The position numbers and the translations under genes are program-made. A stretch of 63,036 nucleotides of DNA, counting the filler, from Circinaria calcarea (lineage: Eukaryota), in NCBI GenBank assembly GCA_051942165.1. It is 5 parts of 5 records of this genome, joined end to end, with 100 filler letters (N's around TTAATTAATTAA, not from the genome) between each part and the next. Parts side by side here need not be neighbours in the genome. Positions count along the whole stretch, not along the records: positions 12,661 to 25,202 come from JAVECS010000561.1; 4 more parts are not named here. One strand, 5' to 3'. The notes under the pieces were generated by a model. That model was not told the DNA's origin and searched no databases. It saw only the letters and a program-made list of their open reading frames with translations. How positions within the stretch are numbered: the first letter of the stretch is position 1; each line of letters begins with the position of its first letter. Shown here one piece after another: positions 1 through 56,653 of the stretch.

Positions 1-326
1 GGGGGGGGGGGGGGAGGGGAAGTTATTCAGGACCTTCCAAAACAGCCTGGAAGAAAAGGATTGTAATCTCTACTACTTGAAACCTACAGGAAGGGCGAGC
101 AAGTATTCACAGCACCAAATTTTCCGAGGGTGACAGCCCAAGGGGGATGATTGCATTATAATCTCGATAGGGGGGTTAGCAAGGCATTGGAACTATGGAA
201 ACTTAGAGCCTGAAGGGGAGGGCCTACGGCGGTAAAAGGTCACGAAAGTGAGATCTCTTGAGTCAGTGGCTGGTTGAGTTGGGCATTTTGGGTCTTGGCC
301 ACCCGATTAAGCAAGAAAACACAGCT

Positions 327-11439: not shown

Positions 11440-11644
11440 TGTCAGGCTCTATGGTTAGGGAGTGGCGATACCTCGCTTAGTTGGCGTCTTGGCGTATAGT
11501 GAAAACCTTTCACTCGCACATTACTTCTCCAGTAATGATTAGTTCTCGCATATACTGCGTATAGCCATCGTATTACTCGTGCCTCACATTACCACATACC
11601 TTAGCTTTAGATACTTTTCAAGTAAAGTACTCTACGGCCTCACA
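11440..11644 (+). mobile_element. Solo-LTR-like dispersed repeat (copy 1)
   Basis: 205 bp with termini TGTCAGGC...GCCTCACA (imperfect inverted, TG..CA). Clearly homologous to 38554-38755. Confidence 0.6.
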
Positions 11645-12560
11645 TCCAACTTGCCCCCTTTTTTCCTTTTTTTTTTCTTTTGGGGTTTCCTAAATCTAAG
11701 TTCTAAAGGGTCTATCTACTACATACGCATGGGATTCGTCGGGTCGTTAATTCACTCCCGCTCCCCGTTCCCGCGTCCTCCGTCTCCCCAGGCATCTTTT
11801 CTCTCTCTCTCTCTCTCCTCTCCGTGTGCCTGCCCACCTCCTTTCTTTTTCCGGAGACGTAATCTAGAATTAAATTGCCCCCCCGGCGGAAACGGGGGGT
11901 AGTTGAAAAGGGCGGCGTGGGAAGTTAAAAATACTCCTATATCCTAGGGAGGATACGTGTCGAGTCGGTAATATATATGGTAGCATGTATTTGTTACCTA
12001 CCTGAGTGTATAACCAAGTTAAAAACTACTTATGCCATGAAAAAAGTGCTTTTTTATTGGGGGGTATGTGTGTGTGTGGGGAGAGAGAGTAGTGTAGTGT
12101 AGAGAGCAATGGACCAACTGCAAAACGCCGTAGGTAACAAACACGGTGATTCGGTAAAGCCCCCCTATGAACTTTCCAACAAAATACGTAGGGGGGCATA
12201 AACATAATAGGAGGAGTAGCGTAAGACTCCGTGAGCGTACTCCGGGGGACGAGTGGTAAATAATGGGTTCCAACCGTATCAGGATGGGAAAAAAATCCTC
12301 CTTCCCCTTTCTTCTCCCCACAAAAAAATAAAAAAAACTCCTTCAAGACCAAATCCCAAGCTTTCGAATACAGACACGCTAAAAAGAGGGAGGCGAAGCG
12401 AGCGAGGAGAACGGGGGGATCCGCCGGAAAAAAAACCCCCCTTTTTCTCTTGGGGGGGGGTTTGTGGTGTCCAGACTTCAAAGGATTTCCCCGGGGAGGG
12501 GATTGGAGAGGAAAGGAAAGTAGGTGCCCGGCAAGGATTTAGAGTGGTAGGGTGTGGGGG

Positions 12561-12660
12561 NNNNNNNNNNNNNNNNNNNNNNNNNNNNNNNNNNNNNNNN
12601 NNNNTTAATTAATTAANNNNNNNNNNNNNNNNNNNNNNNNNNNNNNNNNNNNNNNNNNNN
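12561..12660. other. Artificial contig linker
   Basis: N44-TTAATTAATTAA-N44, which places stop codons in all six frames. Confidence 0.98.
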
Positions 12661-12989
12661 GCCCCTCTTTGATTTATCAAGCCGATATCCCAGGTCGATG
12701 CGGCGTGCACTCCTGCCGGAAATGCGGTAATTCCTTGGGCATAACGCACCCCGAGAGGTCCGTCCTGAAGACAAAGGGATGGATACCCAATTGATGGTAT
12801 CGCCTTGGTATTCCCTACGCAAGGACCCTTGGCCCAACCACCCCCAGTCACCATGTCGACCTTATCCTGAAGAGAGAGTTTGGCCAGCGCTGCGGTAGCT
12901 TTGGAGTACGCTGCTCCCCAGTTGCCATCTCCAGGAGCGGCACAGATTGGCGCAGCCAAAGCCACAAAGGCAAGTAAAAGGAAGAGCAT
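12661..12989 (-). CDS. Secreted GH3 beta-glucosidase, 5' part only (cut by contig end)
   Basis: Signal peptide MLFLLLAFVALAAPICA followed by W.AAY.KA, GPCVGNT, LCLQDGPLGVR and TAFPAGV.AASTWD. Confidence 0.92.
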
Positions 12990-14009
12990 TTCTGCTGTAG
13001 GGAACTGGGATGAATCCAGAAGAAGACGCAGTTCCAAAAGGCTGGAGAAGGGTTCCCACTGCTTCCTTTAAGCCAAAACTCTGGTAATTTGCCATCCACG
13101 CAAGGAACAGCGACCCAAGCTGTTACTGCTTCTGAATGGCCTCCGTTGTGGTACACGTCAAGGGCTCTGAGGCCCTGGTGACCCTTGTGCATTTTATCCA
13201 TTTCATCCACATTACCCATTTTATCCAGAGCGGGTATGACAAGTCGATATCGAATCGAATCTACCGGCTATTCAAGATTCATGCCCAGATTTGCGGTAAC
13301 ACCGTTACTGCTTTACAATAAGCTGCTGACAGCCTTCGAAGTTAGTAGTCAGTCTCTGGATGTGTCCGGTTCTGCTACTGATAGGTTCGCTTACCGCCCA
13401 TCGCGCCGAATATCGTCAACCCCGCAAAGGCGGATTACTTGCTCCGATGGGTAACGCGTGGTACTAGGAAGCTAACGATACTCTTTTCGACGTCTGTATG
13501 CAGTCAAGGTCATACGACAGGCCAGGACAAAAGATTCGGAAGTGATTTATGGTACAATGTAGCATGGGAGAAACGCGGGGTTTTCTGAGGGCACTAGGTG
13601 ACCAGCCGAGATTCGGTCTGGATAAGAATCATGTTCGAACGGAAATGTTGATACTAGGGAAATCCTAGGGACAGCAAACAGCCATTGAGACAAGCGACCC
13701 AAAGGCATACTTCTTCCACTGTTCTGAACAGGTACCCTCCTTGCAAGATGTCACGAAAAGGCCAGTTTCGCAATGAAGAAGTCCGAGCTGTGCCATCAAA
13801 CAGGTCAAGTACCTATAACACAAAGACTACAGCTCATCTTTGAATGTAGAGAAAGAGCCCTATAGAGAGGCACGAGGGCGAAGTGTGAGATGCCAGAAAT
13901 GGGCGGCACGGTGCTTAAACACAAAAATAGCCTTGTAGGGCTACGTCGGGCCGTTTCTTCAGCCGTCCAGGGGTGACCGGGGGCCAAGCCGACAGACTGG
14001 TACGAATGG

Positions 14010-15262
14010 AGGCGACGGCATGAAAACACGAGTGATAAAGCGGGGCTTTGGGGGGATTATAGTGAATACCCTGCTTAAGCTCCATGCAAAAGCCCCAGGT
14101 AGAAGAAGCTGTTTTGGAGGCAGCGGCTGAAATTTAGTTAAATAGGGGTAACAAAACTTTAGATTTTGCCGCCAGCATGAAAACACGGGATCAAGAGCGG
14201 GGCTCTGGGTATACTATAGCGAGTAGTATCTTTAAGCTGCATGCAAAAGCCCCAGGTAGGAGAAGTTGTTCTGGAGTCAGCGGCTTGAAAAAAATAAATT
14301 AACCCTAACTAAACATAAAGCGAGAAGCCGACGGTACGAATACACCTTGTTAAGCGGGGGGCTTTGGAGAAATCATAGCTACTTATATCGTCAGCGTGTA
14401 TGCCTGAGCCCTCGATAGAAGAAGCTTTTTTAGAGGCAGCGGCTGAAATTTTGCTTAATTAGGGGTAAACAAAAACTTTAAATTATGCCGCCAGCATGAA
14501 AACACGAAGGATAAAGCAGGGCTCCGGGAATATGACGAGTATTACCATACTTAAGCTGTGTGCAAAAGCCCCTGGCAGGAGAAGCCATTCTGGAGCCAGC
14601 GGCTTTAAAAAAGAAATTTAGCCCTAGCTAGAATTCCGCGATCAGCCGACGGTGCGAGTATGCGTTGTTAAGCAGGGGGCTTTCAGAATATAATAACTGC
14701 TTATATTTATAGTATATGTGCTAGAGCCCCCGGCAGCAGAAGCTGTTTTGGAGGCAGCGGCTTAAAAAAAATTTAGCCCTAGCTAGCTGTATATTACGCG
14801 ATCAGCCGGCGTTGCGAGTATAGGGAATTGAACAGGGGGCTTTCAGGATATAACAAATGTTTATATCCCTAGTCTATATACCAAAGCCCCCGTCAGGAAA
14901 AGCTGTTTTGGAGCCAGCGGCTTGAAATATTCGACTAGCCCTAACCCAGCATTAAGCGAAAAGCTGTCCTGGTTTGGCTTAGCGGCTCGCTTCCCGGGGC
15001 CGGATCACGTGACCCACAATGTATTTAGTTTCCTAGTTGTGTGGAGATTCTATCTCTATACTTAAAATTCTAGGTTAATACTGCAACCAGAATTCAGTCC
15101 CTGACAGAAGCCGACGTTAGAGGTACGTGGGCTCAAACGGGAAGGCTTTGGAGCAAAGATGATACAGAGCTTAAGCAATTATTCTGCTGAAGCCGAAACC
15201 CATAGAAATGCCATCCTGGAGCCAACGGCCTGGAAATTATGCACTTAGCCCTAACCAAGCCG
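14010..15262. repeat. Diverged tandem array, period ~159 bp, six units plus a degenerate seventh
   Basis: CAGCGGCT recurs at 14121, 14278, 14437, 14597, 14755 and 14915 (degenerate copy at 15223). Each unit has GGGGCTTT...AAAGCCCC inverted pairs. Confidence 0.9.
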
Positions 15263-16115
15263 CTACGTGAAACAAAAGCACAATTCTTATCATACCCCCA
15301 ACATCTACAAAATCTTCTATCCCTATTTTGGGGCAGTGGACGGTTGCGGAGGGGTACGACCTATACCATACAGGGACTACCAGAAAATGTTTCACACCCC
15401 TTGCCGATTCGTATCGTACGGGTTACGAACTGCTAGGTCCTTTGGCATAAGATTCATTTTGCCGCAGGTGGGGGGTTTTTTATGTGATGGAGGTGAGATG
15501 GTTTCTATTGCTACTGTCTCGTAGCTACTAATACACAGAGTTCTCGTGTGAGGAAGATCCGGGGAACCTCCGTGACAGGGTTTCAACTGTCGCAAGGGAA
15601 AAGTCATTTTCGTGAATAGGGCCTTCTGTCGCCAATATCAATACAAACACTTACGACAGGGACGTTGCGACCGTGACCTCTTGCGAAAGGTGTATCTGGC
15701 CCAGTGATCTTGTAACCATAGCGAATACTTCAGGGCAGTCAGTACCTCCTATGAGTAGAGGTAATTTCCTGTAAATAAAAGGGGATCGGGGGTATGAGAA
15801 TACAATTTCGCCTGTATTCACAGTCTAATTGGAAAGGGATGGGAGAAGGTTGGGGTTACTCGGGTAGGTTTTAGCCGATTTGATCAGTTGGGATTAGGAG
15901 GCAACCCGGGTGCATATTCAAAAGCTGCCCTTTGTTTAAAAGTCATGCTAACAACTCGCGGTGATGGGCACAGGTTTAAGAGTAAAAATCTTACGTGTAT
16001 GTGTAAATGATTAGAGCTTTGAAGCTAACTTCTAAGCAACGGTCTATATGATCACAAACCCGCCAATCTTTTTTTTCACAAGCAAGTACTCGCGGACCAA
16101 GTATATGAAAAGCCG

Positions 16116-17024
16116 TCAGCCTCGACAAGCTCCCTGTCCAGATTCGCTCTTGGGCACGTAGACGATTCCGTCGCACACCAAGCACATGATTATCTCCTTC
16201 GTCGACCACGTGCCCGAATCAGGCTGTTGGCACTTCGGACACGCAATCGGCGCTGGTCTGTTTCTCTGCCCGGCTGCTAAACCAGTCATGCCGTGGATGA
16301 TGCGGTAATGCGTTCTTTTAAGCTCCAACTTTCGCCTGATGAATTGCCTTCTGATTTCTCTGGCTATCGCGTTACTGCAAGGCAAACACGTCCATCTGCA
16401 GCGGAATACGTCAGGGCAGATACAGGTGTTGCAGCCTAGGGGGTGTTGCGTTATCTGATCTCCAGAGCAAGTGTTGCAGAGGGGCTCGGTTGTGAAACCG
16501 ACTCCATTGAGTGTCGCCCAACTTCGATTTGGGTTGCGGGGGTTCGTCATGGCTGCACCTCCTGTGCAGCTATAGCAATATCCGAGCCGGCTATCACCCT
16601 GTCTGTTATCATCTGGAGGAAGTGGCGTCCCAGGAAAATCCTTATCGCTGGCGCATATAGAGCTTTCACAGTAGCGTGTGGCGCTGTGGCTAGTCAGGCC
16701 ATTCGGACACTGAGTTATGTTCTCCTCAAGAGTGTGGTAAAAGCCGCTCCGGGACCATGACCTCAGCTGTCCTTGACATTGTGCGTCCAGGCGATGGAGA
16801 TGACGTAGATTTCTGATTAAGCCATGTAACTCTAGAGATTGCGCGAGTCGCCTGCTGCATAGACGGAGTTGTTCAACGTCGCCCATGTTAAGGTATTTGA
16901 ATATAACGTTGGTAGCATCCCTCGCAAGACAATCGAAGATAATCTCGAGTCCCGAAAGATTGGGGTTTTCCGTATCGACGCGGCTTTGTTGAAGCATCGT
17001 TGGAACTGCGTATTGTCCAGCCAT
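16116..17024 (-). CDS. Intronless hypothetical protein with an F-box-like N-terminal segment and a Cys-rich C-terminus
   Basis: 302-aa ORF. LEIIFDCL..NVIFKYLNMGDVEQLRLCSRRL resembles an F-box; several CxxC pairs follow (CYSC, CNTC, CLPC, CPKC, CLVC). Confidence 0.6.
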   Translation of the reverse strand: MAGQYAVPTMLQQSRVDTENPNLSGLEIIFDCLARDATNVIFKYLNMGDVEQLRLCSRRLAQSLELHGLIRNLRHLHRLDAQCQGQLRSWSRSGFYHTLEENITQCPNGLTSHSATRYCESSICASDKDFPGTPLPPDDNRQGDSRLGYCYSCTGGAAMTNPRNPNRSWATLNGVGFTTEPLCNTCSGDQITQHPLGCNTCICPDVFRCRWTCLPCSNAIAREIRRQFIRRKLELKRTHYRIIHGMTGLAAGQRNRPAPIACPKCQQPDSGTWSTKEIIMCLVCDGIVYVPKSESGQGACRG

Positions 17025-19400
17025 TGTGATGGCTCCTCTGTCAATGAGCTGATCTGTTTGGAGTCAAAGGCACCGATTGTAGCTGATATTGCTTTATTTT
17101 GTAGAGTGATGAGCTGTGGAATAATGTGCTGAGAGAACATCCTATAGGGACTATTATCAGTGGGATCCTAAACACCTTTATTGGTAAGGAAGGGAAGCTC
17201 CTTTGTTGCTGGGTGTCACCTTGTCTCGGCCTGGTGTGAGTCAAGACCACTGACTTTGAATAAAGACCACGAAGCATTCTTAACAATGGTATAGTTGATC
17301 TTGCACTTGGGAGACTAAAGAAAAACAATTCCATTCAAAATCGAACAATACAACCAGAGACCTACGAGTGAAGTGATTCACGAGAGTTTAAGATTAATGT
17401 TGTAGTAACCATGCCTATTAAGAAGAGAAACATGGGGAACTTGGACCTTGCATACTTTGATGCACTAGTACGGTTAATACAAGCTCAGCTTCTCATACGG
17501 CTCATCAAGAGCTTTGTTGTATGGTTAGCTTGATTATAGTAGGGACCATATAGGATATCCGTGGTACTCTATTCCACCTTGATTCCATATCTCGATTGGT
17601 GCTCTATATATCATAAGTGACACCAGCTTAGTCGAGAAGCTGAAATGTAAGTCCCTAGGTCATAGTCTACTCCTCCCAACATACTATAGCTTCCCATAGC
17701 GGGGGAGATCGCATGACCCATGAACGGCTTAGGAAGTGTCTTTTTACGATTTGCGTTGAGGCTATTCGTATCGTAATAGTTTCGACAGCAGTCTGTGACC
17801 GTAATGGCTTGGGTTCATGACGATCTTGTTGATCAGTTGACCAAGCTTTGCGCTGTGTATAGGGCACCGAACGTAATTGGATTTCGCAGAGAGACCAAAT
17901 CTGTATGGAAGAGAGCATACCTTCTCCCTATCGTGATTCGGCTCATTCGAGGAGATCTTAGGCTTGTTCTAAGCGTTCTGCTCTCTCACCCGTAAAGCTT
18001 TCTGTATACTTTGCACCATCATACCCCTCCCTTCGCTTCAGCGCTGCTTCTTCTGGTATTCCTCCTTCCATCGTATCTCGACCTATCGTAGACGCCATAC
18101 TAGTTTTTCACCCGGTTCCTCAGCGATGAGGACCGAAATTTTGCCACGGTGCCTATTTTTGAAAACCTTTCATACTTAGAGGGGGGATGGTAGGCTCTGT
18201 AGCTTCGAATAGCTGAGAGGGGTCCGTCGCAGAGTAAGACTTTGGAGTGTCTAAGGCCAAAAGGACTTCTCCGCTGTGGTATGGGAACCCTGCGAAGAGC
18301 TAAAGCATATGTCTGACAACCTTACTTTCGTTTGGGGAATGAGATAGCAGCGGAGACCAATGGGTTTGGTATCATCCTGCTACACTTTTCGCCTTCCGGC
18401 CTGCGCCTATAGATCCGATTTGAACGGATGCCAGCCGTACAGACGCGGTATTTCGCTGCTGCGCCTTCAATCTCGCATTAATGGGTATCATTCACTCGTG
18501 AGACTTTCATGTTTATTGGCAGCAAGACCGTATTTTCCAGGGCTCGTAACCTCAAATTGCCAAGTTATGCCGAAGTTTAAAAAGGGAAGACGCCCGCTAA
18601 TTTTCGTGCTCTAGTAGAAAACAGGAGCATTAAAGGGAGGGGCATTACGTCTTCAAAAGCAAATGCGCGATATGGCTGCGAAATGTATATATGTAGGTTT
18701 TGAATGCTACACATATCTGGTGGAGAAACATAGATAGAGACGTATAATAAGGAAGTGAATTAAGGGTACTTATCTAAGATTGTAAGCGCAAACACTATTC
18801 TATCAAAACAGATTGAATAGCCCCAGTCAGATGATAGAAGGCTTAATCGTGAGGAGTAAAGGATAGAGCATGATATAAAAAGAGCCTGGAGACTTTAAAA
18901 GGACTTGGGGGAATTTTGACGAGGGAGCTTTGGTGGGAATTTAAGGGGAAGAGGTAGCGGGTTGATTGACTGCTGGAGGTGAAATTGTGAGAGTTCATAA
19001 AGATTTAGAGTGTGATATAATACAATAGATGCGGAATACGCCGTGATTGTTTAACAGGATTTAGCAGTTAGTGCACAACCATATAAGAGCCAGATGCGAG
19101 AAACGACGCCGGGTTTTGACAGCGTTAAGGCTTGTCAGACAAACAAAAATCTGGGTATATGAAGAGTTCCTAGTAATACCAAGAGCCAGCTCTAAGAAGT
19201 GAAACCAACACCAGATGTCTGCAAGCGCAAGTTAAACAACAAGTAGGAATACAAAATATAAAGTGACAGGACTCACAATTCTAACATTGAACAGCCCTGT
19301 TGCAGAGGACCGTGACTGTAACGTGAGATCTTTTGATAAGCTGGAGATATGTCAGAGATGCGTCTGTTATCGCTATCAATCTGATATTCTGCGAAATTTA

Positions 19401-20431
19401 TCATAGTTTATCATGGGTACTCAACCAAAGAAAGTCCGGGAAGGGATGCGACGGCGACGCAAAGAAAAGTAAAAGTGAGCGCGGCACGTCAACATCAATG
19501 TCCACCTGTTTCATGAGATGAAGAAGTGGGATGTAGATTTGGGTTCCGGTGAGCAGCATCAAGACTGTAGACAGCGAAAGTTTTGGAGTCACTGCCTGTA
19601 CCAATCTGGGTTGTTTGGATAAGGCTGAGTGTTGAATGGTCGATAGTTCGGCAGTTGTTCGTAGCCTGTAGGTAGACTTGGCCCCTGACGTGCCATTGGA
19701 TAGCCACCGGGGTATGGCATCGCAGCAGAGTTGAAGTGCTGTGGAAAGGTTTGATAGCTTATTGACGACTGATCCACCGCCGAGTCTTGAGGATGCCACG
19801 GTGACTGTGTACAAGCATAGTTGGTATCATTCCTAGTTTACCGTCAGCATAATAGTCAAGGCAATCGGTGGAAGGTAGGAAGACGATACCTTGCGAAGTA
19901 AGAAGCATGAGAATCCCCGTAACCTACAGGTTCTTGAACCCTTCCATACTGAGCATGAACATAACCTTCTTCAAGTAGAGAAAAGGGTATGGTCCTAGAA
20001 GAGATCAGCTGCGTGATACATATTTTGAAAAGCTTGTCACTAACCTCGTTGGCTGGGGGCTTACAACAAAGGTGGTCTGAGGCGCTATGAGTCTCTGAGT
20101 GCCTCCATCGTCCCAATGTGAATCCGATTCCGGACTGTTCATAGCCATATTGGATGAAGTAGGGGGTCTAGTCTTTAGGATTTTCCATTGACGTCGACGG
20201 CGTTCCCATCGTTTGAGCCTATGAACCAAATATCGTTAAAGCCGTAATCTTGTAGGGCTTCCGTATAACTGACGTTACATCGAGACCGCATCTCTCCTTG
20301 AACAGCTGCTGAACTTCCGGAAGTGTGCAGTCATGGTCGATGTACCACTCCCTAAATTGGTCCTTGTATGGCTCCAATTCTCGGGTAGCTGGAGTTCTCG
20401 GGACGGAAGGCTTGGGAGGGCGACTGTCCAT
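19401..20431 (-). CDS. Clr5-domain protein (3' end uncertain)
   Basis: LEPYKDQFREWYIDHDCTLPEVQQLFKERCGLDVT spliced (GTCAGT..CATAG) to LKRWERRRRQWKILK matches the Clr5 domain pattern. Downstream exons are low-complexity P/Y/Q-rich. Confidence 0.6.
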
Positions 20432-23400
20432 CCTGGGCTATATTGCTGGTCGGTGTAGCAAATGCAGAAGCAGAAGGGTGGCCCTTGGCCTTAGCCTTTA
20501 TATGGCCAGACAGCATAGAAATGACCCGAGCCAGTAGTCGCGGAGTCGAAAGGAGTGGCATGATCAAGGGTATATTTCCTCTGCTGCCTCAACAGCTCCT
20601 GGCCAGACAATGGCACTCGCCCGTACTATGGCATTCCTTGCGAAGCAATATGGTACTCGACAGTCAGCATAATCGAATTCCAATCAGAATTTTATGAAAA
20701 CCACCGCGGGCCACTGCCACCAGTAGTTGATTGGCAACGTGCGGATTGGCAAGGGGTGGTAACCCGGGATCCCCACAAAGCCTAGGCACGTGTTGGACTT
20801 TCCAACGTGCGAGATCTTGTGTCAAAAACGAGGTAGAGCGAGACATGCATATAGTGTAGGATTTCACGATTCGCCACTTTCAAGCTGCACGAACCAAACA
20901 GAATGCTGGTGGAAGCCTCGATCAGCACCAGCGGGATCCTCTTCTGACATCTAATCCAGGCGAGAACCTTACAACGGTCACGATAATCCCTTGTTCCGAG
21001 GGTTCAGTTGGCCACCATCTCCTGCAGTTGACCGGCACATCTTGCGTCATTGAATTTGGAATAAGGTAAACATCGATCACCTGGCACGGGGTAAATAGAC
21101 CACCATTGGCATCGATTGCCGACTCTTCAATGATCTTCCCTTGGGTGTTGCACAAGCAATGGCAGTTCCCTACATGAGGCGGGGCGGAGCTCGTTTCATC
21201 GGCTCATTCCGCTAATTAGGCAGAAGCTCACAAGATGAGCCTCTCTCATTCGATATTCCCAATGACAGTCCCGCCTAGCTGGCATAACGGCCCTGGACTC
21301 GGGCTCATTTGTCCAAACGCAGCGGCAGCGGCAGTAGAGGAGTCGTGATGGAGCACGCTTCCAGGACCGGCAACTGTCAGTCAGGCTGTGGGATCAAAAT
21401 AGAATGGGGTGTTTCTCACCAAATTTACGCTATATGGTAACCAGGATGGGGCGGACAACTTGCGGCTTCCAGAGTATCTATTCTATCTCTCTTTGATCCC
21501 AAGCACACTTTGGCTGGTTGCTTTGTGAGGAAATCCGATAGGCAAGTGGACGAGATCACTAGCAGGCACGGCAGGGGCATGGCCACAGGGGTCGCCTCAT
21601 GTCGACGCCCGAGAATGTCGGGACTCCATTACCTCTAACGCCCTGGGCCAACTGCCTTCTCCCTCATCATACGGCCGCAGCCGCCTTCTTCTCGTATCAA
21701 CCCGTTAAGCAGTTGATGGAGTATCCGTGGGATGTATTTCGTTGCCGTTCCTTCGTGTATGCGGTCGTCCTTCGCTAATGAAAGGTAGGCTGACAATCTT
21801 CTGTACATGCTCCCACAAATGAAGGTTCCTGGTAGTCTAATGCAGGAGTACTGGTTCGTCTGATCTTCGGGCCAATCCCGATGTCAAAATGCCGTCCTCC
21901 CCGAACCAACCACTGTGGCGTGTTGCGACCCGGGACCCGCCTATATTTGGATTCTTCGATGTCCTGCATCATGCACGAGTGTTCGGGTGACCATTAAGCT
22001 CATCATACCCCTATTTGCAGTACGCAAGGCTGTACCGGTCTCCTTGGCTATTGGCCACGCATGACACGGGCAGATCCTTACAGGGGCTCCTATATCCTCC
22101 ATTCAAAATAGAGTTAGATACTCCACCATTACTTCTTGTGTCACGATATAAACTCGGTCGCGGCCTTTCTCAATGGTAACTGATATGACAGACACTGGTG
22201 CCTCGCTACTATGTCAGTGCCTTTGCTTCACTTGGTTCTCCTTGCTGGCACGTGGCCTAACTATCTTATAAGACCCTGGGCACATCTAGCATTTCTTATG
22301 TGGTTTAACTATATTTAGTGATTGCACACCTATATTTATACATACTGAAGGTCGTCATTTCTTCCTAGGAGGTATCACAAGTGCTCAAGGGGTGTCACAG
22401 TCGCAATTCTAGCTTCTTCAGTAATAACACCAACACCCAAGTCCCTTCAATCCATACGCTTCACTTTTCGTACGCCACGAGGCTATACCTAGCAACAGAA
22501 CCCCTAATCGAGCAATCATCAATATTTAAAAATACCAAATATAGTAATACGGATACCCCGTGGATCCGCGAATGGTTATCATCGCGTGGAGAGAACCAAT
22601 GCACCATTCATATGTACGAAAGCCAAGGCGAGACGAAGTCTCGTATGTATGGACATCGAAGTCCGAGCCATGGCTTACAAACCATCTGTCGCACCCACCG
22701 CCGGTGTATTAGAGCATAAATTGTCAAGGCGGCTAATGTTGAGCTTGGATTGGGGAATCTGAAGAGACAAGGGTATGATATGGGCTATGGGTGCTCTGAT
22801 AAATGGATTTCCAAATCAGCTCTCCAGCGCTTCCTTACATACCAACACCGCACTAGCCTATCCTTAATAAGACCTAAATTCTCCTCTCCATCATGGATTT
22901 TGTGGACGAATACCAACGCTATATTTTATTCATACCGACTCCGCTTGTACTCGCTGGCTTTAAGGCTTTCCACACAAGGTCAAGTCAACGCTTGGCACGT
23001 TAGGGACGATGGCAGAAAACAGATTTTACCTTCATGAACACGGTAATAGAACAAAGGTGATATCCATCGACCCTTTTCTCTCTAAACGAAAAAGAGAAAT
23101 TGGCGGCACTGTCCTCAGCGACCTAAAGAATAAGCAAAGTGTATGGTCTTGCCGCCATAATTTTCGATGTTAGCCACAAGTAATATCTCCAATGGTACAT
23201 TCCACTGAGATGACCCAAACAAGATTATAACCTCATTGGTGACGGCCTGACAATATCATTGCAGCATGGCGCAAACAAGATGACGGCTATGACCCGCTCG
23301 TCTTTTCTCGGGATGCCATAGTTCCATACCACCATCTATTTCATCTAGGAAACAAGCTAGCCAAATATATCATTTGCACTCTTGACTACTATACCAACAT

Positions 23401-24699
23401 ATTCCATCCAATCGTCCACAATATAACTGACCCTGGAAGTTCAATAAACCCTCCCATTCCCGCCGCATAAATTCTCCTCAAACGTCACCAACTTCTATTG
23501 GTCGCAGCCCCTTTCCGCCACAACTCAGACTAGACTTTTGCCACCGACATCCTCTCCTCGTTCCCCTTCGACCATTTCCTGAAACACGGAGTATGAAAAG
23601 CTATACCGCCCTAACATTCAACAAGACTAATATTCTATCTAGATACGAACCCGAATCACATCGCATACCTTTCATCACAAACAATTCTTACCTCCCAAGT
23701 CAAACTGCCTCTCTCCCTACCCGGAGGCCTAATCCTCTGAAGAGTTTTCCGTCGCCGCACAAGGGTCTTAATATTTCAACCCTACGAAGCGATAAAATCC
23801 TGGCCGAGATTCCCAACTTCCATCCTGATCTTTGAGCCACCATTCCCCAAGTGCTGCTCTGGCTTTCCGGACAGCTTCGTTCCTTGGCTACAAGGTATGA
23901 ATGATGTCGGACTGGAGATCACACGGACTAGTCGCAGCATGTTTCACGGCTCGGTATGCCAAAGCCAAACTCTACGGGATACCCAAAGGGTGGCCCCTTT
24001 TTTTTTTTTTTTTTTTTTCCCCCCCCCGCCAAATCCACCCGCCCTATCCATGTCTAGAAAAGAGCGACACGGCAAAACCATTACAAAAGTCTAGGACCAA
24101 AGAGTCTCCAGTGCCGCCGTGAAATTCCCCCCATCCCACTTCTCGCTCGGGATCCGTTCGGCCGCACTGGACGACTTCACTTCTGATACGCAGGTTACAG
24201 ACGCATGATGTATAAAGTATATCATAGATTCATCCCGAGAGAGGCATCCGCCCATATCGAACAATCCCATAGAAAGGGGGATCGGGGAACCGGAACCCCC
24301 CCTCGATTAGATCTCCCGTCATCTCAGTCTCCCCATTTACCACCAGTAAAAAGCTTCGAAAGGAAACCTGACCCATTACCCCATACCATGAACCTTCTCG
24401 CACTTTTCTGCACTTTTCCGCATCCTCAACCTCCTCAAAACCCATCAAAACCTTAGCTTTCCCCTTTTCCCCAATTTTTGGTTTCTTCTCCATCCAGCCG
24501 AGAAATAAACGACCCCCCGCGCTTTTTTTCTAACAACACAGTACTAGGGAGGGAAAAGGGGGAGCGCGCCGAAACGGATTCCTTCCCCCTCGAAAGGGAG
24601 AAAGGGTCATCATGGTCATCATCATTCAATTCATTAGTCTTCAATTCATCCAGACTCAACTACCTGAGCAATCCCTTGTGACCGGCTATCTGCCCGCAA

Positions 24700-24810
24700 C
24701 ATATCATATCATATCATCAACTAGGTATCCATCCATCCAACCAATTCATCCATCCATCCAACCAACCAATTAATTCATCCAACCAACAAACCAATTCATC
24801 CAATTCATAT
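24700..24810. repeat. (ATATC)n / (CCAT,CCAA)n microsatellite
   Basis: Direct reading of the sequence. Confidence 0.8.
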
Positions 24811-25202
24811 GCAAAAAACCATTTGATATGCTTTAAGCAAAAAAAAATGGGCTATAATGGAAAATCCATGGAACCAAAGCTAACAGACCCGGTCGTTATG
24901 CCAGCTCGCCGGGCGAAAAAAGGTTCGAAAACGCCAAAATGTCCACTCCACATGCCTAGATCCTAGGAAAAATTCCGTCCCCATGTTCTCGTAAAGATTG
25001 CTCGTGAGGGAAAAATGAAAAAGATGGGATAGACCGTTAAATCGTTAAGACAAATGCTCCTGAGATATCTCTTGTCCGTCCGTATATTCGTTTAATATTT
25101 CCGGTTCCTGGTTTCGTGCTCCCCAATCGTTGGGGCCCTTTACTACCCCCTCCCTCCCCTGTTCCCTATGCTCGCCTTTTCCAACTCTACCGCCTTCTCC
25201 CT

Positions 25203-25302
25203 NNNNNNNNNNNNNNNNNNNNNNNNNNNNNNNNNNNNNNNNNNNNTTAATTAATTAANNNNNNNNNNNNNNNNNNNNNNNNNNNNNNNNNNNNNNNNNN
25301 NN
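25203..25302. other. Artificial contig linker
   Basis: N44-TTAATTAATTAA-N44. Confidence 0.98.
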
Positions 25303-26233
25303 CCCTTTCCCAAAAACAAGGAGATGTAGGCTAGGCTAAGCCAGGCTAGGGTAAGGTAGAGTAGAATGCGGAAACGAAAGATCCAATCACCAAAATCCAA
25401 AATCCAAATTCAAATACAAAATCCGTAGTCAATATCATCTATATCGATATCGAGAATGTTGAATTTGTTATTAAAAACCAAACCCGATACCTAGCACCCG
25501 AAGGAATTCGAGTAAAAAATCCCAAATGATTTTTTTTGGTAAAAGAACTACTCTACCCTACCTACCTTCAACTCATGTGCCCTTAACCTTTCTTTACCTT
25601 AACCTTTACCTTACGTATTATACGGTACGCGTTCAAAGATTTTATTTACAGTAATTAATACCCAAACCAGGTACGGAGTAAATTATTTGGAGCAAAAGGA
25701 AGAAGAAAGGACCCACCCTTTAACCATATCGATCAATCAGCAACGGGATAAAGCCCAAGTCGGCAGTTCACTCATGAGAATAATCATGCCACGTTAGCAT
25801 TTTGCATTTCGCATTTTGCAAAAAACAATCCGAACTTTTGATACCTAAGCTTTTGATCTTTGATTACTATGCTGGACCTCTTTCTAATATACAAGAGAAA
25901 AAATCTAAAAACGAGCCCGACGGCCATGAAGCTACCAACTAGCATTACACTGCCCCGATTCCTCCCGTTTGGGTTTAGAATACCACCCAGAAAGCTAGAG
26001 AATTAGGCCAATGCTGCAGGGGAAAACTATCCCGGCCGTCATATGCTGATTAGGACACGATTTAGAAAAAATCCTAGAAACGCCGTCAATGCCGCCATCC
26101 GCAGCCAGCATCAGACCAGCTTTTTCATCAAAGAGCCCGTAATCTATGCAAGTCGGGGACAAAGGCCCACCAAATTGTGTACAAAGGAGCAAGAAAATGT
26201 GCAACCGAGTACCTAATATACATGCAGGCTATC

Positions 26234-37843: not shown

Positions 37844-37943
37844 NNNNNNNNNNNNNNNNNNNNNNNNNNNNNNNNNNNNNNNNNNNNTTAATTAATTAAN
37901 NNNNNNNNNNNNNNNNNNNNNNNNNNNNNNNNNNNNNNNNNNN
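37844..37943. other. Artificial contig linker
   Basis: N44-TTAATTAATTAA-N44. Confidence 0.98.
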
Positions 37944-38553: not shown

Positions 38554-38755
38554 CGTCAGGCTCTACGCTTATGGTAGGGGGTGGCGACACCTCGTTTCTG
38601 GTAATTGGCGTCTTGGCGTATATTGAAAACCTTTTGACTGGCACTATATCTTTTCTGTAATGATTAGTTCACGCATCGTATTGCTCGTGTGCCTCACATT
38701 ACCACATACCTTAGCTTTAGATAACTTTTCAAGTAAGGTACTCTACGGCCTTACA
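38554..38755 (+). mobile_element. Solo-LTR-like dispersed repeat (copy 2)
   Basis: 202 bp, CGTCAGGC...GCCTTACA. Shares long identical blocks with 11440-11644, e.g. GTGCCTCACATTACCACATACCTTAGCTTTAGATA. Confidence 0.6.
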
Positions 38756-39056
38756 CCTCACTTGAGATTTTTTGAGGAGTTTTTTTGAGGAGTTTTTTTG
38801 GTTTGGGTTTTTGCTATTTGAATTATTTACGTGCTTTTTTCGGCAACTGGTCAAAAGTCCAGAAGAAAAGAGAAAAATGGCCCTATATGAACATGAAGTT
38901 TTCTCAAAAGCCATACATTCACTCATATAGCCTCCGGCATAAACTCCCACCTTGTTTTTTCTTTTCCTTTCTCTCCCCCCTTCCCCAATCTATTGCCATG
39001 ATCACATTCATATCGACACAATCTCCCCCCCGGGGCCCCGGCATGTTCCAATCGCC

Positions 39057-50453: not shown

Positions 50454-50553
50454 NNNNNNNNNNNNNNNNNNNNNNNNNNNNNNNNNNNNNNNNNNNNTTA
50501 ATTAATTAANNNNNNNNNNNNNNNNNNNNNNNNNNNNNNNNNNNNNNNNNNNN
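50454..50553. other. Artificial contig linker
   Basis: N44-TTAATTAATTAA-N44. Confidence 0.98.
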
Positions 50554-54768: not shown

Positions 54769-55272
54769 TTTTGTAACAGTTTGAAGGCTTGGATGCCATT
54801 CCATGTACATAGACACTCCTCGGAAAAGCCACGATGCGAGGCGTTTTCATGAGACTCCCCTGTCCGAGATCATCCTCGACAGCTCTTAAACGGTATTTCA
54901 AACCAAGATTGAAACATGTTAAAGTTTTCCATGGGATTACTTGGTGGCTGGCTGGCTCATGTTCCAAGAAGTCAAAGGAGGCTAGTGGCTGAGATCTAAC
55001 AAGACAGATCTCAACCTTAGTGCTACTTTCATTCTTGTCGGGTCCCCAGGATCAGAGGATAAATTGTACGGAGTTTTCCCGCGGGACCGGTAACGACGCC
55101 AAGTACCTGGGATAGACCCGGTCGGGCTCAAGTGGTGGGAAATCTCTCGTTACCCTGCTTGGGAAATGAGAGGCTGAGAGGCAGATTATTGACTGCTGTT
55201 GAAATGAAGTGAGCGAAAATAAAACCAAATGTGGGTTGCTTTCCTAAAAGAAACATCATAATACAGTTAATA

Positions 55273-55555
55273 CAGTTGGTGTCAAAAGTCTATGCGCTTT
55301 TTAAGAGTCCTTTTTTTTCTGCGATCTCCGCAAGGGTTAGGCAAAGCGCTACTGCAAAACGATAATTCATTAATACACTCCATAGATAATATGCCATCGA
55401 GAATCCTATCGGATCCCTACCCAGAAAGTAAAATATTATTCGCTCAAGATAGCATTTATTAGTGAAGTAGGGCTAATGCCTTCGCTTAACCCTTGCGGAG
55501 ATCCCCCAAAAAAAAGAGGACCCTCAAAAAACGCATAGACTTCTGACACCAACTG
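55273..55555. mobile_element. Tc1/mariner-type MITE (non-autonomous)
   Basis: 283 bp; ~70-bp imperfect TIRs CAGTTGGTGTCAAAAGTCTATGCG... / ...CGCATAGACTTCTGACACCAACTG, flanked by TA on both sides; no ORF. Confidence 0.88.
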
Positions 55556-56574
55556 TAAGACGCAAACAAGTGGATCAATAATAGGTTGGCGAATGATCAA
55601 TCTGGGTCGGATGGCTTGGAAAGAGCAGCTGGAGTGGATGTGTTACTTTTCACACCAAAAACAACACTCTGCAATACAGTGGGGGGGGAAATGCAATCGA
55701 AAGGTTATTCTCTACCTATTACCTGAGCGACTCGGATACCATTTGACTTCCATCCGAACCTGTTGCGACCTTGCTGCTGTTGTCTAGACTCTTCTTTCGG
55801 AGGGCGACTACAAGGTGGCTCGCTGTCACCCTGTCGAAAGCACGACATTCTGCAGTGTGTCCGGCTAATGGAGGCTGAGCAAGGACCCAATAAGTTGGGC
55901 AATAGTGCTGGGCGTGCATGCCTGCCTTATCGTACTCTTTGCCTGCGAAAGGTAAAGCTCGAGGTTTACGTATGAAGGTGGTTTTGCCTTGCACCCCTGA
56001 CTGTGATGATGTTGTTTTCCGCTTGGGCTTGAGCAATGCACACGAACTACCATCTGGTATCTGTCAAGGAATTTAAAAGTGATTGAGAATAATATATAAA
56101 AAAATCTCTGCGATTAACAACGACAACAATATCTCGTCCGTTTCGCTTTACTCCTCGCCCGCCTCGAGGGGTGTGAATAGGGGATAAAGCAACAGGGCGG
56201 TCAACACATGATCCCGGCTGAAGGTGCGCACTGCAGTATGGATCTGGTGGCGGGGAACCAATCACCGTACATCCGGCCACCAAGCACATGGGATGGGACA
56301 AGATAGGCTAGTGCTACGATCTTTTTAGCCTTCTATTTAGCCTTTATGCAGATGCAGAGAATATTTAAATTGACAGCAAAGCACAGACCTAACGCGACCT
56401 ACCCCTGTCGTGTGGACCGTGTGCCATCATTAGCGTAAACAGCAACACCGGAGGTGCGGAGATAAATGGCACTCCACCGTCCGAACTCGTCTCAATTTTG
56501 AATCCCGAACCGTCTGCATGCGTCATCTACTTCACTACACGATTAACATTGACGTCTACTACATTTCGTCTTCG

Positions 56575-56653
56575 AGAAGAGAAGAAGAAGTAGAAGAAGA
56601 AGAAGAAGAAGAAGAAGAAATAGAAGACGAAGACGAAGAAGACAAAGTAGAAG
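56575..56653. repeat. (GAA)n microsatellite
   Basis: Direct reading of the sequence. Confidence 0.85.

What the first reader, a model, noticed from the sequence alone, without database searches (positions are those of the whole stretch)
14010..15262. Non-coding ~159-bp-period array made of one ~40-bp motif in strictly alternating orientation
Seen: a left motif (A)GCCG-N~8-AA(A/T)ACA-N~14-GGGGCT at about 14012, 14168, 14326, 14487, 14644, 14804 and 15109. It alternates with a right motif AAAGCCCC..AGAAGCTGTTTTGGAGGCAGCGGCT at about 14088, 14245, 14406, 14564, 14723, 14883 and 15190, whose reverse complement resembles the left motif. They are separated by ~40-48-bp AT-rich, much more variable spacers. 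Spacing is held at 157-160 bp despite heavy divergence, which suggests selection on geometry rather than recent duplication. Inference: phased protein-binding or recombination sites, a nucleosome-positioning element (period close to a fungal nucleosome repeat), a structured RNA with serial hairpins, or the subterminal array of a large mobile element. No standard feature explains it.
Basis: partly seen in the sequence, partly recalled or inferred. Interest (0 to 1): 0.72.

Follow-up and report, generated by a model that had tools for sequence, protein, structure and literature searches.

The report
Palindrome-cored fungal tandem repeat array
Between two fungal genes lie about eight diverged head-to-tail copies of a 159-base non-coding unit made of two GC-rich near-palindromes and two AT-rich linkers; it behaves like an ordinary satellite-type repeat, except that one 38-base segment is kept unusually uniform for an unknown reason.

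Summary
The array is real. Six good units end at 14128, 14285, 14444, 14604, 14762 and 14922 (periods 157-160). A truncated unit, a diverged unit and a partial unit follow, and both edges are decayed. Each good unit is a spacer (38-41 bp), a left core (38), a loop (43) and a right core (38). Composition cycles every ~80 bp, units every ~159 bp, and two unit subtypes give a ~317-bp higher-order repeat.

The "alternating orientation" claim is only partly right. The left core matches the right core equally well directly (18.9 of 38) and reverse-complemented (19.9 of 38), because the core is a quasi-palindrome.

There is no support for RNA hairpins: no covariation, no excess folding energy, no Rfam match. 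I found no coding frame, no transposon protein nearby, no bounding inverted repeat and no clear RIP (repeat-induced point mutation) signature. No homologue turned up in any collection I could search; none of them is a fungal genome set.

The right core is 2.5-fold less diverged than the rest and equally similar within and between subtypes. This points to DNA-level constraint or local gene conversion, and I cannot say which.

Verdict: a satellite-type tandem repeat of nucleosomal length with inherited dyad symmetry. It is a new member of a known kind and of modest interest.

The parts
13893..13969 (+). Decayed left edge: fragments resembling a right-core 3' part and a spacer
   Evidence: By eye on the sequence only. 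The unit profile does not reach it.
13970..14128 (+). Unit 1, subtype A: atypical GC-rich spacer 13970-14009 holding a B-type left-core fragment, left core 14010-14047, loop 14048-14090, right core 14091-14128
   Evidence: Segment coordinates; nhmmer E 3.9e-38.
14129..14285 (+). Unit 2, subtype A: spacer 14129-14166, left core 14167-14204, loop 14205-14247, right core 14248-14285
   Evidence: nhmmer E 3.2e-40; 78% identical to unit 4.
14286..14444 (+). Unit 3, subtype B: spacer 14286-14325 (A7 run, AACCCTAA), left core 14326-14363, loop 14364-14406, right core 14407-14444
   Evidence: nhmmer E 5.3e-39; octamer at 14301.
14445..14604 (+). Unit 4, subtype A: spacer 14445-14485, left core 14486-14523, loop 14524-14566, right core 14567-14604. 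This right core is the most palindromic one (26 of 38 self-complementary positions).
   Evidence: nhmmer E 2e-39.
14605..14762 (+). Unit 5, subtype B: spacer 14605-14643, left core 14644-14681, loop 14682-14724, right core 14725-14762
   Evidence: nhmmer E 1.9e-41; 82% identical to unit 6.
14763..14922 (+). Unit 6, subtype B: spacer 14763-14803 (A8 run), left core 14804-14841, loop 14842-14884, right core 14885-14922
   Evidence: nhmmer E 1.2e-41; within the only stretch TRF reports (14565-14927, period 160).
14923..14987 (+). Truncated unit 7: a spacer with AGCCCTAA followed directly by the 3' part of a right core ending GCGGCT at 14987. Left core, loop and the right-core 5' part are missing.
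   Evidence: GCGGCT end at 14987; family D4 copy 14958-14972.
14988..15108 (.). About 120 bp with no similarity to the unit, interrupting the array
   Evidence: No profile match; alignment.
15109..15230 (+). Diverged unit 8: left core 15109-15147 (39 bp), loop 15148-15190 (43 bp), right core 15191-15230 (40 bp)
   Evidence: nhmmer E 0.0026; family D3 copy 15205-15236 at 78%; coordinates read.
15231..15290 (+). Right edge: a spacer with AGCCCTAA (15247) and the start of a ninth left core from 15258
   Evidence: Box hit at 15258 and octamer at 15247; otherwise by eye.

Best explanation
This is an old, non-coding, satellite-type tandem repeat in an intergenic stretch of an ascomycete contig.

**Origin (inferred).** It was built in three steps. 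First came an ~80-bp module: a 38-bp GC-rich quasi-palindromic core plus a ~41-bp AT-rich linker. This module diverged into a left/right dimer of ~159 bp. The dimer then diverged into two subtypes, A and B, which give a ~317-bp higher-order repeat.

**Dynamics (inferred).** The array changes by unequal exchange or replication slippage and is decaying from both edges.

**The hairpin look (shown).** The dyad symmetry is inherited DNA layout: core ends of the form AGCC(C/G)N ... G(C/G)GGCT. It is not a structure kept by compensating changes, and I see no sign of a structured RNA.

**The uneven conservation (shown; cause inferred).** The right core diverges 2.5-fold less than the rest and is as similar between subtypes as within them. 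I attribute this to a DNA-level cause: either a bound protein or short-tract gene conversion. The array need not have any function.
For: **Tandem and hierarchical structure**
- Six units score E 1e-38 to 1e-41 against the unit profile. Periods are 157-160 bp.
- A self-BLAST hit links 14407-14766 to 14091-14448, about 317 bp apart, at 77.7% over 367 bp.
- WW-dinucleotide power is 5.4 at 80 bp and 6.2 at 26.5 bp, against background maxima of 1.0 and 1.3. It is 0.08 at 159 bp.
- One left-arm position (14656-14687) joins the right-arm direct-repeat family at 63%.

**Age and decay**
- Pairwise identity between units is 53-82%.
- Unit 7 is truncated, unit 8 is diverged, and both edges hold fragments.

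**Quasi-palindromic core**
- Left core against right core gives 18.9 matches of 38 in direct orientation and 19.9 in reverse complement. Both exceed their shuffle nulls over the inner 26 bp: 10.3 against 6.9, and 9.3 against 6.1, with p<0.0005.
- Each right core matches its own reverse complement at 16-26 of 38 positions.

**Not RNA**
- Rfam gives 0 hits at gathering score in the whole window. In E-value mode there are two chance-level lncRNA rows, E 0.2 and 1.9.
- Whole-unit fold z-scores run from -2.0 to +0.5 on either strand. Loops alone have mean z +0.14 and +0.45 on the two strands.
- RNAalifold finds 0 compensatory pairs on the plus strand and 1 on the minus strand.
- The explicit 41-pair hairpin pairs no better than when the 3' letters are shuffled among units (58.1% against 60.3%; 498 of 500 shuffles at least as high).

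**Not coding, and no visible transposon**
- Unit lengths are not multiples of 3, and only short stop-to-stop frames cross the array.
- No transposon domain appears in the 64 ORFs of at least 90 aa that I scanned. These were the 64 of 135 such ORFs that lie in 1-36550, at E up to 1e-4.
- No bounding inverted repeat was found in 12990-16120.

**Uneven conservation**
- Within-subtype and between-subtype identity are 0.85 and 0.83 for the right core, 0.77 and 0.55 for the left core, and 0.63 and 0.48 for the loop.

**Described class**
- Satellites of nucleosomal length in gene-rich arms, and satellites with dyad symmetry inside the monomer, are described (passages of PMC4675708 and PMC13081366).
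Against: - The very uneven conservation, the exact 38/43/38 lengths in 6 of 6 units and the length-compensated indel pair are not what plain neutral decay predicts. Some constraint or biased process is needed, and I could not identify it.
- Whether the right core shares the genealogy of its flanks is undecided (r 0.13, Mantel p 0.27). That test would separate constraint from conversion.
- No genome, related genome or RNA data could be consulted, so copy number elsewhere, transcription and conservation across species are unknown.
- Only about eight units at one place are seen. This is far from a classical abundant satellite.
Confidence: 0.55

Rival explanations
1. The array is a phased set of DNA binding sites. 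The 38-bp quasi-palindromic right core, and more weakly the left core, is the operator of a dimeric sequence-specific protein. It is presented every ~159 bp at fixed internal spacing. It would act as a regulatory or chromatin-boundary module, for instance for the beta-glucosidase gene whose start codon lies about 1 kb away.
For: - The right core has 26 of 38 invariant columns, against 21 of 81 elsewhere (p 1.7e-5), and is as similar between subtypes as within them.
- Lengths are fixed at 38/43/38 while spacers vary from 38 to 41 bp. One indel pair in a loop cancels out in length.
- G(C/G)GGCT boxes occur 18 times in the array (13.6 per kb) against 1.0 per kb in the rest of the window.
- The telomere-like octamer ARCCCTAA occurs 3 times in the array's spacers and 3 times in the other 61.7 kb.
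- The gene with its start near 12989 on the minus strand matches solved fungal beta-glucosidases (6jxg, E 6.7e-39).
Against: - The copies are related by descent, so motif counts are not independent events.
- Motifs recalled from memory for fungal regulators are only mildly enriched. GGCWWW occurs 19 times, against a maximum of 16 in any other stretch of the same length. SYGGRG runs at 9.8 against 3.9 per kb.
- No binding protein is identified.
- Short-tract conversion could give the same pattern (one search is undecided).
- Spacers are more prone to indels simply because they hold A runs.
Confidence: 0.2
2. The array is the internal or subterminal tandem repeat of a non-autonomous DNA transposon (a MITE, foldback or Helitron-like element), or a cluster of MITE copies. 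The quasi-palindromic cores would be former terminal repeats or transposase-binding sites.
For: - Each ~119-bp module (left core, loop, right core) has inverted ends with an AT-rich interior.
- The right core could form a local 8-bp hairpin. In three spacers it is followed by an A run and CTAG. The resemblance to Helitron 3' ends is recalled, not tested.
- No genome was available to count dispersed copies.
Against: - No target-site duplication is visible at either phasing of the module (by eye).
- No bounding inverted repeat was found in 12990-16120.
- There is no further copy in the 63-kb window.
- No transposase, Rep/helicase or integrase domain appears in the 64 ORFs scanned.
- The strict 157-160-bp period fits tandem duplication better than repeated insertion.
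Confidence: 0.12
3. The array is a nucleosome-positioning element. Each ~159-bp unit would seat one nucleosome on the dyad-symmetric 119-bp module, with the A-run spacer as linker DNA.
For: - The period of 157-160 bp is close to short fungal nucleosome repeat lengths (recalled).
- The module is dyad-symmetric.
- A6-A8 runs occur in three spacers.
- Nucleosomal monomer length is linked to nucleosome phasing in the satellite literature (passage of PMC4675708).
Against: - Composition cycles at 80 bp, not 159 bp (power 5.4 against 0.08). This gives two equivalent frames per unit.
- The ~10.5-bp WW periodicity is marginal (0.97 against a background maximum of 0.77).
- A runs are absent from the subtype-A spacers.
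- It does not explain why only the right core is conserved.
Confidence: 0.08
4. The array is a structured non-coding RNA or a small-RNA precursor, with one hairpin per unit.
For: - An 8-bp stem (GGGGCUUU with AAAGCCCC) is present in all units. The right core has a local hairpin with two G-U pairs that works only on the plus strand.
- Stem plus loop gives z -0.1 to -3.3 on the plus strand.
- Units 5 and 6 differ by one A-T to G-C swap in a small loop hairpin (by eye).
Against: - Rfam gives no hit.
- Whole-unit z-scores run from -2.0 to +0.5. Loops alone have mean z +0.14 and +0.45. The right-core hairpin gives z -1.5 to +1.1.
- There is no covariation: 1 of 41 pairs changes on both sides against 3.8 in shuffles, and paired cells are 58.1% against 60.3%.
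- Only 15-22 of 38 arm positions are Watson-Crick complementary, far from a Dicer-type stem.
- I saw no conserved C/D or H/ACA boxes (by eye; box consensus recalled).
Confidence: 0.05

Closest known systems
Satellite-type tandem repeat families of nucleosomal monomer length in gene-rich chromosome arms (Tribolium castaneum Cast1-Cast9; PMC4675708, abstract and passages read)
   Same: Head-to-tail non-coding monomers of about one nucleosome length and of double that length. They sit near genes rather than in heterochromatin. The authors discuss effects on nearby gene expression and nucleosome phasing.
   Different: Those families are abundant and dispersed over many loci in an insect. Here I see one array of about eight units in a fungal contig. 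Copy number elsewhere is unknown, and the monomer is 159 bp rather than ~170 bp.
Satellites with dyad symmetry inside the monomer or inversely oriented subunits (Tribolium madens TmSat2, T. brevicornis, the 385-bp Trichogramma brassicae satellite with 80-bp inverted repeats; PMC13081366, passages read)
   Same: The monomer is built from sub-units that can pair with each other. Higher-order repeats derive from a shorter ancestral unit. The symmetry is a property of the DNA layout.
   Different: There the sub-units are clearly inverted copies. Here the two cores match equally well in direct and inverted orientation (18.9 against 19.9 of 38), because each core is itself a quasi-palindrome. The arms are short (38 bp) and only about 50% complementary.
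Conserved boxes inside otherwise variable satellite monomers (CENP-B box of alpha satellite, recalled; CENP-B-box-like motifs in nematode satellites, PMC3694981, seen in a search listing only)
   Same: A short segment of the monomer is kept nearly invariant while the rest drifts. This is interpreted as a protein-binding or recombination-promoting site.
   Different: No binding protein, centromere context or sequence similarity is shown here. The conserved segment is 38 bp and quasi-palindromic.
Bacterial REP/BIME clusters (recalled, not fetched)
   Same: Imperfect palindromes of ~35-40 bp, repeated between genes and separated by short linkers, often in alternating orientation.
   Different: Those are prokaryotic, dispersed in hundreds of copies and linked to a dedicated transposase-like protein. 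A scan of 185,579 prokaryote genomes with the right-core pattern found 0 matches. This is a resemblance of layout only.
Earlier notes of this scan on other fungal genomes (e1-7554549, e1-7653329, e1-7568245, e1-7585826; AI notes)
   Same: Intergenic fungal arrays of ~150-165-bp units, or of 30-40-bp boxes, with weakly palindromic cores. Follow-ups mostly judged them to be decaying tandem repeats without covariation.
   Different: There is no sequence similarity to this array (look-up by sequence found 0 windows). I did not re-examine those loci.

Membership tests
Satellite / minisatellite-type tandem repeat | Head-to-tail copies of one unit, far beyond chance | tested here: met
   Six units at E 1e-38 to 1e-41. 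The 25-mer occurs 6 times against 0 expected. TRF gives period 160.
Satellite / minisatellite-type tandem repeat | Higher-order repeat made of diverged monomer subtypes | tested here: met
   A self-BLAST hit about 317 bp apart at 77.7% over 367 bp. Subtypes A (units 1, 2, 4) and B (units 3, 5, 6) appear.
Satellite / minisatellite-type tandem repeat | Non-coding | tested here: met
   Unit lengths are 157-160 bp, not multiples of 3. Only short stop-to-stop frames cross the array.
Satellite / minisatellite-type tandem repeat | Abundance, or arrays at several loci (classical satellite) | not testable with these tools
   No genome is held. There is no other copy in the window.
Satellite monomer of inversely oriented subunits | Sub-units resemble each other in inverted orientation better than in direct orientation | tested here: not met
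   Reverse complement 19.9 against direct 18.9 of 38. Over the inner 26 bp, 9.3 against 10.3. No reverse-strand blastn hit. Weak minus-strand profile hits at E 4.9e-5 and 0.053.
Structured RNA family (any Rfam family) | Covariance-model match at gathering score | tested here: not met
   0 matches in the window. In E-value mode there are only two lncRNA rows far below gathering score.
Hairpin RNA array / pre-miRNA-like precursor | A stable stem with excess folding energy and compensatory changes | tested here: not met
   z from -2.0 to +0.5. 15-22 Watson-Crick pairs of 38. No covariation against shuffles.
snoRNA cluster (C/D or H/ACA) | Conserved C and D boxes, or H and ACA boxes, at fixed places in each unit (consensus recalled) | tested here: not met
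   By eye on the alignments. CUGA follows the right core in only 2 of 6 units, and I saw no conserved C box or ACA. No snoRNA family appears.
MITE / TIR transposon or Helitron-derived array | Terminal repeats with target-site duplication, dispersed copies, or a related autonomous element | tested here: inconclusive
   No target-site duplication seen by eye. No bounding inverted repeat. No other copy in the window. No transposon domain in 64 ORFs. No genome-wide test was possible.
RIP-mutated duplicated DNA (RIP = repeat-induced point mutation) | Transition-dominated divergence with CpA/TpG depletion and TpA excess (index thresholds recalled) | tested here: not met
   Transitions 460 against transversions 447. 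TpA/ApT is raised at 1.27, but (CpA+TpG)/(ApC+GpT) is 1.31, which is not depleted.

The most novel reading that the evidence does not exclude
The 38-bp quasi-palindromic right core is a selected operator for an unknown dimeric DNA-binding protein. It is presented as a phased array with fixed geometry (38/43/38 bp inside a 157-160-bp period). Telomere-like ARCCCTAA sites and A runs in the spacers would make this a chromatin-organising or regulatory module upstream of a secreted beta-glucosidase gene. If similar palindrome-cored ~150-165-bp arrays noted in other fungal genomes (unchecked notes) work the same way, this would be an undescribed class of fungal cis-element.
Probability: 0.12. Interest if true: 0.6.

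Novelty: new member of a known kind. Interest (0 to 1): 0.28.

Why it matters
As it stands, this is a well-characterised example of a short satellite-type repeat in a fungal intergenic region. It is useful mainly as a caution: dyad symmetry in a tandem repeat can look like a hairpin-RNA array without being one.

It would matter more if the right core proved to be under selection. The locus would then offer a compact natural system for asking how a repeated protein-binding palindrome at nucleosome-scale spacing acts on a neighbouring cellulase-type gene. It would also raise the question of whether similar arrays in other fungi share that role.

Tried and rejected
**External data**
- No whole genome is held for the window.
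- For sequencing runs holding 13600-15700, none was listed and no RNA holder was listed.
- Earlier findings by place and by sequence returned nothing. One word search returned nothing.
- Exact-pattern scans with two right-core patterns found 0 matches: metagenome contigs, prokaryote genomes and viral contigs. None of these collections is a fungal genome set, so this says little.
- A full-text search for five motif strings found 0 papers. A general search for fungal tandem or inverted repeats found nothing specific.

**RNA**
- Global folds of the 1.28-kb array were uninformative.
- No tRNA genes were found.
- Small hairpins inside the loops looked conserved by eye, but loops alone fold no better than shuffles.

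**Flip-flop idea**
- I tested whether spacers, loops or left cores are inverted between subtypes by recombination between the inverted boxes.
- A-versus-B spacers score slightly higher in reverse complement (z 0.7 to 2.4) than in direct orientation (z -1.3 to 1.0).
- Loops are better in direct orientation, and the cores cannot be oriented. I dropped the idea as unsupported.

**Other tests**
- Spacer and loop are not related to each other in either orientation.
- RIP: the indices are mixed and transitions about equal transversions, so I rejected it.
- Regulator motifs recalled from memory (SYGGRG, GGCTAR, GGCWWW, AGGGG) are only 1.7- to 4-fold denser than in the rest of the window, and the copies are not independent.
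- Right-core genealogy against flank genealogy was undecided.
- The neighbouring 302-aa ORF has no Pfam family. The beta-glucosidase fragment has no Pfam hit but clear PDB matches.
Full report
**Context**

The window is not one continuous sequence. Four linkers of the form N44-TTAATTAATTAA-N44 start at 12561, 25203, 37844 and 50454. They cut the window into five pieces of 12,560, 12,542, 12,541, 12,510 and 12,483 bp. It is therefore a chain of similar-sized contigs. The array lies in the second piece (12661-25202), about 1.3 kb from its left end.

The pieces look like ascomycete DNA.
- Pfam finds a fungal PH-like domain, a fungal rhodopsin domain, a P450 and others.
- The protein atlas places the PH-domain protein among Ascomycota clusters.

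Yes.
- The 25-base right motif occurs 6 times with up to 3 mismatches, against 0.00 expected.
- A profile of the unit finds six units at E 1e-38 to 1e-41 and a diverged one at 15103-15229 (E 0.0026). It finds nothing else in the window at E<0.5.
- Unit lengths are 159, 157, 159, 160, 158 and 160 bp, and pairwise identity is 53-82%.
- TRF sees only the youngest part (14565-14927, period 160).

The stretch 14923-15108 is not a regular unit. It holds a spacer, the last third of a right core ending at 14987, and about 120 bp of unrelated sequence. A partial ninth unit starts at 15258, and fragments lie left of 13970 (by eye).

**Anatomy**

Phased on the conserved boxes, every good unit is a spacer (38-41 bp), a left core (38), a loop (43) and a right core (38). 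The diverged unit 8 keeps 39/43/40.
- Cores are GC-rich (0.57-0.60). Loops and spacers are AT-rich (0.35-0.36).
- Each core begins AGCC(C/G)N and ends G(C/G)GGCT, so its ends are reverse complements of each other. Such boxes occur 18 times in the array (13.6 per kb) against 1.0 per kb elsewhere.
- The composition signal has its power at 80 bp (5.4, background maximum 1.0) and at its third harmonic of 26.5 bp (6.2). It has none at 159 bp (0.08).
- There are two unit subtypes, A (units 1, 2, 4) and B (units 3, 5, 6).
- A self-match of 77.7% over 367 bp links stretches about 317 bp apart.

The structure is therefore hierarchical: ~80, ~159 and ~317 bp.

**Alternating orientation?**

Only in part. 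Evidence that the arms pair:
- The arms are complementary in register in 58.1% of cells, against 35-45% when the partner is slid by 1-3 columns.
- The unit profile hits the minus strand within the array at E 4.9e-5 and 0.053.
- A right-arm weight matrix scores the left arms on the minus strand above the best background hit in 2 of 6 cases.

Evidence that orientation cannot be told:
- The left core matches the right core just as well in direct orientation: 18.9 against 19.9 of 38. Over the inner 26 bp the values are 10.3 against 9.3, and both exceed their shuffle nulls.
- The right core matches its own reverse complement at 16-26 of 38 positions.
- blastn reports no reverse-strand hit.

The simplest description is a quasi-palindromic core repeated every ~80 bp, whose orientation cannot be determined.

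**RNA hairpins?**

Not supported.
- Rfam has no match at gathering score in the window, and only two chance-level lncRNA rows in E-value mode. There are no tRNAs.
- Single units fold no better than shuffles on either strand, with z from -2.0 to +0.5. Loops alone give mean z +0.14 and +0.45. The right-core local hairpin gives z -1.5 to +1.1.
- RNAalifold keeps only the 8-bp GGGGCUUU/AAAGCCCC stem and that local hairpin, with 0 and 1 compensatory pairs on the two strands.
- For the explicit 41-pair hairpin, dealing the 3' letters out among units gives as many pairs as the real arrangement (60.3% against 58.1%; 498 of 500 shuffles at least as high). Only 1 pair has a change on both sides, against 3.8 in shuffles.

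The complementarity is inherited column by column and is not maintained by compensation.

**Other standard explanations**

- **Coding.** Rejected: periods are not multiples of three, and only short frames cross the array.
- **Transposon.** Not shown, and not excluded without the genome. There is no transposon domain in the 64 ORFs of at least 90 aa that I scanned; these were the 64 of 135 such ORFs lying in 1-36550. No bounding inverted repeat was found. There is no other copy in the window and no target-site duplication by eye.
- **RIP (repeat-induced point mutation).** Rejected: transitions 460 against transversions 447. TpA/ApT is 1.27, but the CpA/TpG index is 1.31, which is not depleted.
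- **External homologues.** 0 matches in metagenome, prokaryote-genome and viral collections and in full-text motif searches. None of these is a fungal genome collection.

**What is unusual**

Conservation is very uneven.

| Segment | Identity within subtype | Identity between subtypes |
|---|---|---|
| Right core | 0.85 | 0.83 |
| Left core | 0.77 | 0.55 |
| Loop | 0.63 | 0.48 |

- The right core has 26 of 38 invariant columns, against 21 of 81 in left core plus loop (Fisher p 1.7e-5).
- Per-site differences are 0.163 in the right core against 0.414 elsewhere.
- Segment lengths are exact in 6 of 6 units while spacers vary.
- The loops of units 2 and 4 differ by a 3-bp loss offset by a 3-bp gain.

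This needs either constraint on the DNA or a biased process such as short-tract conversion. Comparing right-core and flank genealogies was undecided (r 0.13, p 0.27).

The spacers carry a telomere-like octamer (ARCCCTAA) 3 times, against 3 times in the other 61.7 kb. Three spacers also carry A6-A8 runs.

**Neighbours**

- On the minus strand, a gene starting near 12989 matches solved fungal beta-glucosidases (6jxg, E 6.7e-39). It is cut by the contig end. The array lies 1.0-2.3 kb upstream of it.
- On the other side, a 302-aa cysteine-rich ORF (16116-17024, minus strand) ends 0.85 kb from the array. It has no Pfam family but has relatives at 84% and 54% identity.
- Regulator motifs recalled from memory are only mildly enriched, and the copies are not independent.

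**Comparison with what is known**

- Tandem repeat families of nucleosomal monomer length and of its double occur in gene-rich chromosome arms of Tribolium castaneum (PMC4675708, passages).
- Satellites built from a shorter ancestral unit, with several levels of dyad symmetry, are described for T. madens. Rarer cases such as 80-bp inverted repeats within a 385-bp wasp satellite are cited there (PMC13081366, passages).
- Earlier unchecked notes of this scan describe similar palindrome-cored ~150-165-bp arrays in other fungal genomes, mostly judged ordinary.

The present array fits this kind in layout, hierarchy and decay. It fails the specific test for inverted sub-units, and its abundance could not be tested.

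**Verdict**

This is a real, old, locus-bound satellite-type tandem repeat with a quasi-palindromic core. It is neither a hairpin-RNA array nor a recognisable mobile element. The one feature worth following up is the slow-evolving right core with fixed spacing, which may be a protein-binding site. I put about 0.55 on the ordinary reading and about 0.2 on a functional binding-site array. Interest is modest.

Noticed in passing
window 12561-12660, 25203-25302, 37844-37943, 50454-50553: Four linkers of the form N44-TTAATTAATTAA-N44. The window is five contigs of 12,560 to 12,483 bp (descending length) joined end to end, so features on different pieces are not neighbours in the genome.
   Followed up: yes
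window 11441-11653 and 38555-38764: A ~225-bp dispersed repeat (78% identical) shared by two different contigs of the window. It could be a short interspersed or miniature element.
   Followed up: no
window 55271-55346 and 55480-55557: A 78-bp inverted repeat pair, 86% identical, with arms about 130 bp apart.
   Followed up: no
window 16116-17024 (minus strand): A 302-aa cysteine-rich ORF with no Pfam family. It has relatives at 84% and 54% identity in public assemblies, so it is a conserved orphan gene next to the array.
   Followed up: partly
window 22000-26000: A strongly C-rich plus strand (GC skew down to -0.32), with GC 0.37 at 25-26 kb and ATCC/CCAA-type microsatellites at 24727-24803. 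The stretch runs across the contig junction at 25203-25302.
   Followed up: no
window 1-19 and 56575-56654: A run of 19 G at the very start of the first contig (possibly a sequencing artefact), and an (AGA)27 microsatellite.
   Followed up: no
window 14301, 14937, 15247: The telomere-like octamer ARCCCTAA occurs 3 times in the array's spacers and only 3 times in the other 61.7 kb. Subtype-A spacers carry the related TAGGGG/TTAGGGG on the opposite strand.
   Followed up: partly
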